DNA of 64,000 nt from contig JBEWZL010000302.1 of NCBI GenBank assembly GCA_045837725.1, positions 124,001-188,000 of the forward strand, given 5' to 3'. A program made the position numbers and the translations under genes. This DNA comes from Vermamoeba vermiformis. Lineage: Eukaryota. The notes beneath the pieces were generated by a model. That model did no database searches. It was not told the DNA's origin and saw only the letters and a list, made by a program, of their open reading frames with translations. Below, piece after piece: positions 18,801 through 21,800 of this stretch; position 1 is the first letter of the stretch; every line of letters starts with the position of its first letter.

Positions 18801-21800
18801 TTACTGAGCAGGCATGCCAGTATCGCCTTCTTTAGGATGAGCAACTTCAACACCACGGTTAGGAATGTAGGGGATCTTTCGTTCAACCATAGTGATACAT
18901 TCAGGAATAGGGCAAACGCTCACACACAAAGTGCATCCGGTGCAGTCGTCAGTAACGGTCGGAATGTGAGTCTTAGAATCGAACTTGATGGCCTAAATTT
19001 GAATGATATTAATACTAGTGTCATATATATATGCTATATAATACGTACTTGATAACCAGAGTCGTTACAAGTCATGTAGCATTTACCGCAGTTAATGCAC
19101 ATCTCGGAATCGACCAAAGCGACGACTTGTTGCTAATAATAGTAATATATTAGATCGTATATAAACATATTATAGTACTCAAGAGCTCCATACCTTTTGA
19201 TCCAAATCGTTGTAATCACCGATTCTGGAAGTACCAGTGGCAATGTGTTTGTTGACTGTGCTGACCTCAGCGCGCTGTTTCGATCGATGAGAATAGGCTC
19301 TATAATTATATACTACACTAATATAGCACGTACCTTGTTAGGCTCGCCAAGAGACACGTCCAATTCTTGCGGCAAGTTCTTCTCGAGCCTCTCCTTGGCG
19401 TATTCCTTTTGCAAACGTTGTCGCTCCTTCATGTAAGGACCGAACCTAAAGTGCCAATCTTAGTCAACTGATACTAATACTAATAAAGCATGTAACGTAC
19501 TTAGGCAAGCCCTTGCCGACTACGTTCTTGGCAGTAAGCTTGAGTTCCTTAGGAGGAGTTTGACCGTCCCATTGGGCAAGGTCCTCACGTGACTTCATGT
19601 ACAAGTAGGTCTGGAGACCAGTGATGTAGTCTTGAATAACAGTGAAGTCCTGTAAGACATCAAAGGTTACTACATAGTCCTTAATCAGCAGGCTAAAGTA
19701 CGTACTTGGTTTTGAACAGCAGAGCAGATCTGGACAACACCAGCACCAGCGTGGAAGAACTGTTCTGACGTTAGCATATCTGACATAAGGTAGTAGCTCG
19801 GTTGTTTCGTACCTGGATGGCAGTGTCGGCAGAGTCGCAACCACCGGTAGCCAAAATAGGGAAGTCAGGCAAGATGCGAGAAATAGCGGACACAGCACGC
19901 AAAGCCATGGGGCGGATAGCATTGCCAGAGACACCACCGTAAGTAGTTCTCTTTTCTTTGCCGATAGCTGGCCAAGCAGTGCCTTCATCGTCACCCTTGA
20001 GGCCCATCAGACCCGAGACAGTGTTGATGGCAGTGACACCATCAGCACCTCCCTCGTGGGCGGCAATAGCAATGCGACGAATGTCGGTGACGTTAGGAGT
20101 CAATTTGGCGAAGAAAGGAATCTTAGTGACGGCACGGACCCATTTGCAAATGTTCTTGACCAATTCGGGGTCTTGACCGCAAGCCAAGCCCATACCACGC
20201 TCACCCATACCGTGCGGGCAAGACAAGTTGAGTTCCAAGGCATCAGCGCCAGAGGCCTCAGCCATCTTGGCCAACTCTTGCCAGTCTGTTCACGAGTAGA
20301 GGTGTCATTAAGTACTATTATACTGCTTAGACGTACCTTCTTGGATATAAGCGCACATGATTGAAGCAATGACGATGTTCTTGGGGAAATCGCGCTTCAA
20401 TTCAGTGACGGCCTTGCACCAGTAAGCAGCTCGCTTTTCAGAGATCAACTCAATGTCTAACATAACAATTAGGATCGAAGGTCGTATGAAGTTAATAGGC
20501 TTGGGACTTACTCAAGAAAGAGGATTGACCAGGGCCGAAGTGATGACCACTAGTGGTACCACGGACAATACGAGGAGAGACGTTAGTGACGGTGTCCTTG
20601 TCGAGGGCAAAAGTCTTGGTGACTGCAAAACCCCAGCCAGCTTCGAAGGCACGACGGATCATGTCAGCGGAGGTAGTGGGAGGAGCAGAGGCCAAACCGA
20701 AAGGATTGGGGAACTTGATGCCGCAGATCTCGACGGAGATGTCAACAGTGTCAATGGCGGAGTAGAAGTTGGGCAATGAAGGAGCGGTGGGAATAGGCAC
20801 ACCGTATGAGCCTTGAATGAACTTGTGCACGTTCCAACTGGCTGTTTTGCCGTCGTTAGTGGCCTCGACAGTGGTACCGTTGCCAACAAGATCACCACCA
20901 GCGAACAACCAAGGCTCAGAGGGGTGTGACATGGTCTCGAGGTTGACATCCAAGTAGCCGTTGTTCTTAATGTTGAAGGGCTTGATGGCCTCGACCAACT
21001 TGGCGTCAGTGATGCCTGAGCCGAAGGCGGAGATGACAAAGTCAGCCTTGAGACGAATGAATGAATCGGGGTCATTGAAGTAATTGCCGCTATCGTCCTT
21101 CTCGGTCTTGTAGAACTCCATCGCCACGATGTGACCGTCACGAGTGACAACTTGTTTGGGAGTAACGTAAGGCAAGAACTCGCAACGTTCCTCACGAGCC
21201 AAGTCAAACTCTTCAGGGACAGCCTAAGAAAACAAAGGTTAGTTCAATGGTCGTGAGATCGGGATCAGATCGGAGGTTGGTGGATCGAGCCCAAAAAAAC
21301 GTGGATGGCAGCGCCATGCGTTTATCTGGTGTGATAACCAACTACACTACCCAACCGAAGCGTTCACTACCGCCCGCATTCTCGCAAGCAAATAATTACT
21401 AACTCAAGTGGCTGGGCCTGGCTTCGATCCAGGGACCTCCGGTTTATGAGACCAACGATGTAACGCATCGGGCAGGTAAGCATCCAAGTGCCAAAACGTC
21501 AAAATCTACTGACGCCGGCACCAAGATGTGAAGCCCGAAATCTCCGTTGATTGTCTATAAAAGGAAACTTACTCTCATGTCGGGGAAAGCACGTCTGAAG
21601 GCGATAATGACGCGTTGAGCTCCACAACGGAAAGCGGATGTGGCGCAGTCAAAAGCAGTGTCACCAGCACCGAGCACGATAACGCGACCGTACAGGCGAG
21701 GCAATTCGTTGGTCTTAGCGCCACCGCTGCCGCAGCCACAGAGACCGGTCTTGGATGACTTGGAAACGTCAGGGAGGAAATCCTTGGAGGTGTAGAAACC

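What the first reader, a model, noticed from the sequence alone, without database searches (positions are those of the whole stretch)
21300..21495. Junction in the anticodon stem (about 28/29), with paired leader and trailer but no canonical BHB
Seen: the leader before the 3' half (...TGGATG-CTTACCT-GCC-CG-ATGCGTT-AC-ATC-GT-T|GGT) is complementary to the trailer after the 5' half (ACC|A-GAT-A-AACGCAT-GGC-GCTGC-CATCCA), which brings the two splice points face to face in one helix. Each flank can alternatively fold on itself (CGATG/CATCG; ATGGC/GCCAT). I could not build a 3-4-3 bulge-helix-bulge at 26/27, 27/28 or 28/29. Established: permuted tRNA junctions described in C. merolae lie in the D loop, at 37/38, or in the T arm, and form BHB-like motifs. 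Inference: this is a new junction class that may need a relaxed splicing endonuclease or another nuclease/ligase, or it may yield a nicked two-piece tRNA.
Basis: partly seen in the sequence, partly recalled or inferred. Interest (0 to 1): 0.8.

Follow-up and report, generated by a model that had tools for sequence, protein, structure and literature searches.

The report
Permuted methionine tRNA gene, odd junction
Inside an intron of a protist's pyrimidine-breakdown gene lies a methionine tRNA gene written second half first, whose halves would have to be re-joined in the middle of the anticodon stem, a place and local fold not described for such genes; whether the RNA is really re-joined is not yet shown.

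Summary
On the minus strand, a tRNA 3' half (21453-21409), a 52-nt spacer, the matching 5' half (21356-21328), a 28-nt trailer and a T7 run form one unit inside a spliced intron of a dihydropyrimidine-dehydrogenase gene. Joined, the halves are called tRNA-Met(CAT) by ARAGORN. In genomic order neither ARAGORN nor Rfam calls a tRNA. The break can lie at 25/26 to 28/29, but only 28/29 gives five Watson-Crick anticodon-stem pairs. Leader and trailer share collinear 7-bp and 6-bp helices (0.24% of shuffles). No 3-4-3 bulge-helix-bulge can be built in any register. A soil-metagenome relative has no difference in 208 covered unit positions, against 9 substitutions and 5 indels in 76 flanking intron positions. 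I found no orthologue with changes, so there is no covariation test. RNA evidence is two reads, and none shows the joined product. Published permuted junctions are 15/16, 20/21, 37/38, 50/51 and 59/60, all in algae or one archaeon; this host is a non-animal protist nearest to Amoebozoa. Best reading (0.45): a maintained permuted tRNA gene matured by a route without a bulge-helix-bulge. Rivals: relic, tRNA-like non-coding RNA, two-piece tRNA. Side find: giant-virus-like CAU tRNAs with a conserved insert exactly at 28/29.

The parts
21454..21528 (-). Upstream conserved block and leader. It holds the leader strands of the 6-bp (21486-21481) and 7-bp (21468-21462) helices, a self-hairpin (21470-21456), two T4 runs (about 21506-21503 and 21496-21493) and an A-box-like TGGCACTTGG (21493-21484).
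   Evidence: Sequence; helices; identical to the window in the soil-metagenome contig up to 21528, with differences starting at 21529. The A-box reading is my inference.
21409..21453 (-). tRNA 3' half, positions 29-73: lower anticodon stem, CUCAUAA loop, variable loop, T arm with A54 and G60, acceptor 3' strand, A73; no CCA encoded.
21357..21408 (-). 52-nt intervening sequence between A73 and G1; no T run of 4 or more. It can also pair with the leader (-22.0 kcal/mol).
21328..21356 (-). tRNA 5' half, positions 1-28: acceptor 5' strand (7 of 7 pairs with the 3' half, one U-G), U8, D arm with A14, G18, G19 and A21, then A26, C27, C28.
21300..21327 (-). Trailer with the partner strands of the 7-bp (21322-21316) and 6-bp (21307-21302) helices and a self-hairpin (21317-21305).
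21293..21299 (-). T7 run, read as an RNA polymerase III terminator; it is the downstream end of the conserved block.
   Evidence: In the soil run the first difference is at 21292. In the aquifer run the diverged contig's unaligned tail runs on into an A run that appears to be the T-run start, after a shorter, different stretch.
21224..21572 (-). Host intron (GT...AG) of the dihydropyrimidine dehydrogenase gene, same strand as the unit.
   Evidence: Reading frame and Pfam-type hits. RNA reads of a 90-95% alike relative skip 21221-21571 (2 reads in X22, 14 in X24).

Best explanation
This is a real, maintained, circularly permuted gene for a methionine-type tRNA (anticodon CAU) in the nuclear genome of a non-animal protist. 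It sits in an intron of the DPYD gene on the same strand. Shown: the layout, the intact halves, the paired flanks, the terminator, and the conservation of the block. Inferred: one precursor is made that runs from upstream of the 3' half to the T7 run. Leader and trailer pair and hold the two inner ends together, while the acceptor stem, T arm and D arm fold as in a normal tRNA. The flanks are then removed and C28 is joined to G29, giving a circle or a joined precursor. RNase P and tRNase Z cut at G1 and A73 to remove the 52-nt spacer, and CCA is added. Because no bulge-helix-bulge can form, I infer that the cut sites are defined by the three-way junction where the flank helix leaves the anticodon stem. 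Either a splicing endonuclease with relaxed specificity does this, or the two flaps are trimmed and the templated nick in the stem is sealed.
For: 1) Joined halves are a canonical 74-nt tRNA-Met(cat) with all 7 acceptor pairs. By my reading of the sequence they carry U8, A14, G18, G19, A21, U33, G53, U55, C56, A58 and C61. 2) The boundary between intact tRNA sequence and non-tRNA sequence falls at the same tRNA position in both pieces. The flanks show no residual likeness to the missing halves (shuffle fractions 0.52 and 0.82), which is not what two decaying tandem copies would show. 3) The layout matches published permuted genes: a 52-nt spacer within the published 1-74 nt range, no terminator in it, a T stretch after the 5' half, and no encoded CCA. 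4) Nested 7-bp and 6-bp flank helices are reached by 0.24% of shuffles. 5) Conservation in the soil run X8: 0 differences in 208 covered positions of 21293-21528, against 9 substitutions and 5 indels in 76 flanking intron positions. Fisher's test gives 4.9e-6 by sites and 0.019 if the differences count as 3 events. Contig depths of unit and flanks are alike (2.5-3.8 against 3.4), so it is single copy. 6) In RNA run X22, from a relative 90-95% alike, the only intron coverage is two reads over about 21305-21374, covering proximal spacer, 5' half and trailer. So the 5'-half-then-trailer order exists and is transcribed there. 7) Independent plausibility for the site: 16 of 16 aligned giant-virus-like CAU tRNA genes carry an insert exactly between 28 and 29, and 27:43 and 28:42 covary across it.
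Against: No read or contig shows the joined product or a circle; the RNA evidence is 2 reads. No orthologue with sequence changes was found, so the flank helix has no covariation support. The motif that defines every published permuted, split or ectopic-intron tRNA pathway is absent. By duplex energy alone the flank pairing is not beyond chance (6.7% of shuffles), and the unit's fold is ordinary (z = 0.30). The tRNA is atypical: A54 marks initiators in eukaryotes (stated for C. merolae in PMC3978253), yet this tRNA has G1:C72 and U31:A39, so it is neither a textbook initiator nor a textbook elongator (the textbook features are recalled). The B box lies upstream of the A box, and two T4 runs lie in the conserved upstream block, so the promoter and start site are unclear. 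In the aquifer run X4, identity extends over the whole 21293-21578 contig while the next contig differs by 8 of 93. That pattern may be a recombination mosaic and not selection.
Confidence: 0.45

Rival explanations
1. Non-functional relic: a rearranged or partly deleted pair of tRNA-Met genes that is too young to have decayed and that happens to lie in a slowly changing stretch of the intron.
For: No BHB. No joined RNA seen. The tRNA has the odd A54 with G1:C72. The close relative X8 has 0 of 69 differences in the neighbouring exon, so overall divergence is low, and its differences cluster in two spots. Counted as events, the conservation test gives only p = 0.019. The X4 pattern looks like a mosaic.
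Against: Both halves keep every invariant and break at the same tRNA position. The flanks are not decayed copies of the missing halves. A T7 run sits right after the trailer, and nested flank helices are rare by chance (0.24%). By sites, 0 of 208 against 9 of 76 gives p = 4.9e-6. The arrangement is also present and transcribed in a relative only 90-95% alike in exons (2 reads).
Confidence: 0.2
2. A tRNA-derived non-coding RNA that is never re-joined. The long stem made by the two ends is a protein-binding handle and the tRNA body is a mimic, as in bacterial and phage YrlA / Y RNAs, whose ends also sit in the anticodon stem.
For: Same topology: T arm before D arm, with the ends forming an imperfect stem of roughly 20-25 bp that leaves at the anticodon stem. 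A polymerase III-type T run ends the unit. Leader, spacer and trailer are as conserved as the tRNA parts. The T loop is atypical. The idea came from earlier notes of this scan.
Against: A complete, canonical CAU anticodon arm is kept, which such mimics lack. The acceptor end is not sealed by a short loop; it is bridged by 52 nt with textbook RNase P and tRNase Z sites. An Rfam scan of 21000-21800 at E up to 10 gave no Y RNA or YrlA match. I did not see the vertebrate Ro60-binding stem motif, which I recall from memory, in the flank stem.
Confidence: 0.15
3. A two-piece (nicked) tRNA: RNase P and tRNase Z remove the spacer, the flanks are trimmed, and the 1-28 and 29-76 pieces stay together without ligation. 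They are held by the acceptor stem, the 2 + 3 bp of the nicked anticodon stem and tertiary contacts.
For: A nick at 28/29 lies inside a helix templated by the continuous 39-43 strand, so stacking could hold it (reading). Nicked tRNAs persist in cells (PMC10159003, search listing and abstract only). No BHB is needed.
Against: No natural two-piece cytosolic tRNA is known to me (recalled). Nothing in the data supports it, and ribosome function with a nicked anticodon stem is untested.
Confidence: 0.07

Closest known systems
Circularly permuted tRNA genes of Cyanidioschyzon merolae, Ostreococcus, Micromonas and the Bigelowiella nucleomorph (Soma 2007 and Maruyama 2010, as reviewed in PMC3978253)
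   Same: 3' half upstream of the 5' half on one strand; a short intervening sequence bridging the acceptor ends (1-74 nt there, 52 nt here); a T stretch after the 5' half; no encoded CCA; leader and trailer that pair. Permuted Met(CAT) genes (initiator-type there) recur in those lineages.
   Different: Published junctions are 15/16, 20/21, 37/38, 50/51 and 59/60 and form BHB or relaxed BHB motifs. Here the junction is at about 28/29 in the anticodon stem and no BHB forms. The host is not a recognisable alga, and the gene sits inside a spliceosomal intron of a protein-coding gene.
Archaeal introns and split tRNA genes broken in or next to the anticodon stem (25/26, 29/30, 30/31; Caldivirga maquilingensis, Nanoarchaeum, Staphylothermus; PMC4090602)
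   Same: The break is in the 5' strand of the anticodon stem or at its top. Complementary flanks bring the pieces together.
   Different: Those use BHB motifs and archaeal endonucleases, and the split genes are separate transcription units. Here there is one unit, a eukaryote, and no BHB.
Ectopic tRNA introns of the Guillardia theta nucleomorph, and 'no H' motifs of algae (cited in PMC3978253 and PMC4090602)
   Same: Eukaryotic tRNA interruptions that are removed although most cannot form a defined BHB. One O. lucimarinus Ser(TGA) intron lies at 27/28 with a 'no H' motif.
   Different: Those are introns in otherwise collinear or 37/38-permuted genes; none is a permutation junction in the anticodon stem.
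YrlA / Y RNA tRNA mimics (Rfam RF02553, RF00019)
   Same: A permuted tRNA body whose 5' and 3' ends form a long stem leaving at the anticodon stem.
   Different: The mimics have no anticodon loop and a sealed acceptor end. This unit keeps a full CAU anticodon arm and open, processable acceptor ends, and it has no Rfam match.
Giant-virus-like CAU tRNA genes with a 53-77-nt insert between 28 and 29
   Same: Interrupted at exactly the same tRNA position. The insert leaves the stem as a helix after short single-stranded linkers (three-way junction). An A54 T loop goes with G1:C72. The insert starts with UAAA(A)C; the trailer here has AGAUAAAC.
   Different: The virus genes are collinear (an insert, not a permutation). 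Their exon sequences are only distantly like this tRNA. Removal of the insert is not shown either.

Membership tests
Circularly permuted tRNA genes (Soma 2007 type) | 3' half upstream of the 5' half on the same strand; joined halves give a canonical cloverleaf | tested here: met
   ARAGORN calls the joined halves tRNA-Met(cat), 74 nt, in 4 of 4 registers.
Circularly permuted tRNA genes (Soma 2007 type) | Intervening sequence bridging the 3' and 5' acceptor ends, without a promoter or terminator | tested here: met
   52 nt, longest T run 3; the published range is 1-74 nt.
Circularly permuted tRNA genes (Soma 2007 type) | T stretch downstream of the 5' half; upstream TATA-like or AT-rich promoter | tested here: inconclusive
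   T7 at 21299-21293 is present. Upstream there is only a weak AT-rich TAGATTTT and an A-box-like motif, both by eye. The 75 nt upstream of G29 are conserved in X8.
Circularly permuted tRNA genes (Soma 2007 type) | BHB or relaxed BHB (hBH, HBh') formed by leader and trailer at the junction | tested here: not met
   Exhaustive register search: no central helix of 3 bp or more that also has both flanking helices, for junctions 25/26 to 28/29.
Circularly permuted tRNA genes (Soma 2007 type) | Circular RNA intermediate and a mature, aminoacylated tRNA | not testable with these tools
   Two cDNA runs of a relative gave only 2 reads on the unit and no back-joint. No small-RNA data were available.
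Archaeal-type split or ectopic-intron tRNAs | BHB recognised by the splicing endonuclease at the break | tested here: not met
Y RNA / YrlA tRNA mimics | No anticodon loop, sealed acceptor end, Ro60-binding stem; match to RF00019 or RF02553 | tested here: not met
   A full CAU anticodon arm and a 52-nt open bridge. No such Rfam match at E up to 10.
Y RNA / YrlA tRNA mimics | 5' and 3' ends form a long stem leaving the tRNA body at the anticodon stem | tested here: met
   Constrained folds; helices.
tRNA pseudogene / relic | Loss of invariant residues or stem pairing; evolves like flanking neutral DNA | tested here: not met
   Invariants and all stems are intact except A54. There are 0 of 208 differences in the unit against 9 of 76 in the flanks, with the caveat that the differences are clustered.

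The most novel reading that the evidence does not exclude
A eukaryote outside the algae makes a working tRNA from a back-to-front gene by joining the halves in the middle of the anticodon stem without any bulge-helix-bulge. The cut sites would be set by a three-way junction. The join would be the sealing of a templated nick in a helix, for example by flap removal plus a nick-sealing RNA ligase of the kind known from Naegleria (recalled), or by a splicing endonuclease with a new recognition mode. The same pathway would serve the conserved 28/29 inserts of giant-virus CAU tRNAs, which depend on protist hosts.
Probability: 0.3. Interest if true: 0.85.

Novelty: new variant of a known kind. Interest (0 to 1): 0.6.

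Why it matters
Every permuted, split or ectopically interrupted tRNA studied so far is explained by one rule: the splicing endonuclease cuts a bulge-helix-bulge. A maintained permuted gene with its junction inside the anticodon stem and no such motif would need a second rule. If it lies in a heterotrophic-looking protist, permuted tRNA genes would also extend beyond algae and one archaeon. It gives a concrete single-locus substrate for testing how relaxed a eukaryotic endonuclease can be, or whether nick-sealing RNA ligases of protists have a tRNA role. There is a practical point too: standard tRNA finders miss this gene, so a Met tRNA species may be wrongly scored as absent in this lineage.

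Tried and rejected
Orthologues: an exact 37-nt stretch of the 3' half gave 0 loci in metagenome contigs, genome contigs and viral contigs. Of 141 matches, 115 had an ordinary 5' part. The best was 37 of 45 identical to this 3' half, and none was permuted like this one. No genome is held for the window, so other tRNA genes, TSEN, RtcB and other ligases could not be surveyed.

Decayed-tandem-copy idea: the flanks are no more like the missing halves than shuffles are (0.52 and 0.82), so I rejected it as shown.

BHB: canonical and relaxed searches were negative. A high-scoring register cutting in the D loop gives no tRNA and was rejected.

RNA: cDNA runs X22 and X24 are from a relative 90-95% alike. 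They confirm the host intron but give only 2 reads on the unit, with no joints and no ends. This is too little to call expression or a start site.

Taxon: Hsp110 is 34-39% identical to everything named, apart from two unnamed near-identical matches at 93-95%. The ubiquitin repeats have no junction insert. The DPYD tree separates the window from animals (100/100) but does not resolve it among protists. The best named DPYD matches are Amoebozoa at 61-68%.

Earlier notes of the scan: nothing at this place or by sequence. A search by seven words found nothing.

Literature: searches 'permuted tRNA' (74 papers, 30 listed), the same with 'amoeb' (6 papers), and 'disrupted tRNA gene/permuted/protist' showed no permuted tRNA outside algae and archaea by title or abstract.

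Origin of the 28/29-insert family: PHROGs gave 0 families for 10 flanking ORFs. blastn against phages gave only tRNA-sized matches. The records are not held as genomes.
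Full report
WHAT IS THERE

Read on the minus strand, the region holds these parts in order:
- a leader;
- a tRNA 3' half covering positions 29-73 (21453-21409);
- a 52-nt intervening sequence (21408-21357);
- the matching 5' half covering positions 1-28 (21356-21328);
- a 28-nt trailer (21327-21300);
- a run of seven T (21299-21293).

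ARAGORN finds no tRNA in the window. Rfam finds none at gathering score. At E up to 10, Rfam reports only a 15.9-bit partial tRNA match (21469-21417). That match uses a leader hairpin as a stand-in D arm and the leader's last two Us to complete the anticodon stem.

When the two halves are joined by coordinates, ARAGORN calls a 74-nt tRNA-Met(cat) in all four possible registers, 25/26 to 28/29. Only 28/29 gives five Watson-Crick pairs in the anticodon stem. The acceptor strands pair 7 of 7, and by my reading of the sequence the usual invariant residues are present. The exception is A54 in the T loop. A54 combined with G1:C72 and U31:A39 makes this neither a textbook initiator nor a textbook elongator (the textbook features are recalled; A54 as an initiator mark is stated in PMC3978253).

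A scan of both strands of the 64 kb for a T arm, an acceptor 3' strand and a matching downstream 5' strand found this one site only.

CONTEXT

The unit lies in a GT-AG intron (21572-21224) of a dihydropyrimidine dehydrogenase gene on the same strand. RNA reads of a relative that is 90-95% alike skip this intron (2 reads in X22, 14 in X24).

The host is a eukaryote with about 40% G+C. Its DPYD is separated from animal DPYD (100/100) and sits among protist sequences that include Amoebozoa, unresolved. The best named matches are dictyostelids and Balamuthia at 66-68%. Two other markers gave no placement. Near-identical DNA was laid from one aquifer and one soil metagenome run.

THE FLANKS

Leader and trailer can form collinear perfect helices of 7 bp and 6 bp, plus shorter ones. 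Only 0.24% of 20,000 shuffles give such a nested pair. Measured by duplex energy, the pairing (-20.8 kcal/mol) is matched by 6.7% of dinucleotide shuffles and 2.0% of random genomic 47-mers. So the pairing is real but not overwhelming.

The 7-bp helix starts 5 nt after C28 and ends 8 nt before G29.

I searched all registers for a 3-4-3 bulge-helix-bulge and for relaxed forms (central helix 2-6 bp, bulges 0-6 nt). For junctions 25/26 to 28/29 nothing has a central helix of 3 bp or more together with both flanking helices.

With the acceptor, D and T arms constrained, three precursor folds lie within about 5 kcal/mol of each other:
- A form in which the leader's two Us complete the anticodon stem (-56.6).
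- The three-way junction with the true anticodon stem (-52.1).

The rod cannot be the joining form, because it pairs the two residues that must be ligated.

IS IT MAINTAINED?

In the soil run X8, the contigs are identical to the window over the 208 covered positions of 21293-21528. They differ by 9 substitutions and 5 indels in the 76 covered intron positions outside that block. The differences start at 21292, right after the T run, and at 21529. Fisher's test gives 4.9e-6 by sites, but only 0.019 if the clustered differences are counted as three events.

Unit and flank contigs have like depths, so the unit is single copy.

The aquifer run X4 is identical over 21293-21578, but its neighbouring contig differs at 8 of 93 positions. 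That may be a recombination mosaic, so I do not count it as support.

In the more distant relative (RNA run X22), the only intron coverage is two reads over about 21305-21374, covering proximal spacer, 5' half and trailer. The other run, X24, had more exon depth and none on the unit. This shows the 5'-half-then-trailer order in that relative and hints at a discrete RNA, no more.

The flanks are not recognisable remnants of the missing halves.

No orthologue with changes could be fetched, so there is no covariation test.

HOW IT MOST LIKELY WORKS

Shown: the layout, the intact halves, the paired flanks, the terminator, and the conserved block including 75 nt upstream of G29.

Inferred: there is one precursor ending in the T run. 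The tRNA body folds, the flank helix holds the inner ends, the flanks are removed, and C28 is joined to G29. RNase P and tRNase Z remove the spacer, and CCA is added, as described for algal permuted genes (PMC3978253, sections 5 and 8 read; the maturation section was not read).

The cutting rule must differ, because no BHB forms. Two options fit the anatomy. One is an endonuclease that reads the three-way junction; 'no H' motifs and BHB-less nucleomorph introns are precedents. The other is trimming of the two flaps followed by sealing of a nick that is templated by the 39-43 strand. That nick would be an ideal substrate for nick-sealing RNA ligases (recalled, not tested).

I put 0.45 on a re-joined functional tRNA, 0.2 on a young relic, 0.15 on a tRNA-like RNA that keeps its end stem (YrlA / Y-RNA-like topology, a lead from earlier notes; no Rfam support), and 0.07 on a two-piece tRNA.

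COMPARISON WITH WHAT IS KNOWN

Table 1 of PMC3978253 lists 34 permuted genes from six algae (one of them represented by its nucleomorph) and one archaeon, with junctions at 15/16, 20/21, 37/38, 50/51 and 59/60. A 2026 review still limits eukaryotic cases to unicellular algae (PMC13578239, passages). C. merolae introns are reported in the D stem, D loop, 37/38, variable arm, T stem and T loop, not in the anticodon stem (PMC3728597 section 5). Archaeal introns and splits at 25/26, 29/30 and 30/31 are known (PMC4090602, passages).

So this locus meets the layout criteria of the permuted family, fails its BHB criterion, and has a junction position new for permuted genes and for eukaryotic nuclei. 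I rate it a new variant of a known kind.

SIDE FINDING THAT BEARS ON THE SITE

The degenerate search turned up CAU tRNA genes with an insert exactly between positions 28 and 29. In 16 aligned sequences, 99.6% of cells pair. Positions 27:43 (CG 13, UA 3) and 28:42 (CG 14, UA 2) covary across the insert, and the insert's basal stem covaries too.

A 24-nt signature of the family occurs on 25 IMG/VR contigs of up to 238 kb, three of which carry giant-virus MAG names. Flanking ORFs have MutS domain V, a fatty-acid desaturase and helicase domains. Of 26 loci (the 25 IMG/VR contigs and one MAG contig), 25 hold the complete gene, with inserts of 53-77 nt.

These genes sit beside arrays of up to ten tRNA-Met(cat) genes. 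Like the locus here, they combine A54 with G1:C72 and show no BHB by eye. Because such viruses depend on protist hosts, a host pathway that handles 28/29 interruptions is conceivable. Removal of the insert is not shown.

Noticed in passing
L001, L002, L004, L008, L027, L031, L032, L037, L045, L046, L063, L071, L074, L103, L115, L116 (metagenome); L124 (MAG contig); L125-L149 (IMG/VR): A family of CAU tRNA genes (G1:C72, A54 T loop) with a 53-77-nt insert exactly between positions 28 and 29. Positions 27:43 and 28:42 covary across the insert and the insert's basal stem covaries. It occurs on giant-virus-like contigs (GVMAG names, MutS domain V neighbours), and 25 of 26 loci hold the complete gene. 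I saw no BHB by eye and know of no description. Whether the insert is removed is unknown.
   Followed up: partly
L127, L129, L132, L141, L142, L144, L149 and others: Arrays of up to 10 tandem tRNA-Met(cat) genes, about 120-145 nt apart, next to the insert-bearing gene on the same viral contigs. Why a virus would carry so many CAU tRNAs is unexplained.
   Followed up: no
window 21481-21472 (leader) with 21377-21369 (spacer): The leader can alternatively pair with the spacer (about 9 bp with one bulge; -22.0 kcal/mol). This competes with the leader-trailer helix and with acceptor-stem formation. It could be a folding switch or chance.
   Followed up: partly
window 21493-21484 and 21292-21281, minus strand: An A-box-like TGGCACTTGG sits in the leader about 63 nt upstream of the B box of the 3' half. 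A B-box-like GGGCTCGATCC sits just after the T7 run, about 58 nt downstream of the A box of the 5' half. The second lies in the stretch that differs in both metagenome relatives, so it is probably not essential. Both are readings by eye.
   Followed up: no
window 47300-47382 (+): A weak C/D-box snoRNA-like match (snoZ30a, 23.2 bits against gathering score 80, E = 0.57).
   Followed up: no
window 7110-7973 (+): An ORF with three head-to-tail ubiquitin repeats that diverge from canonical ubiquitin and have no insert at the repeat junctions.
   Followed up: partly
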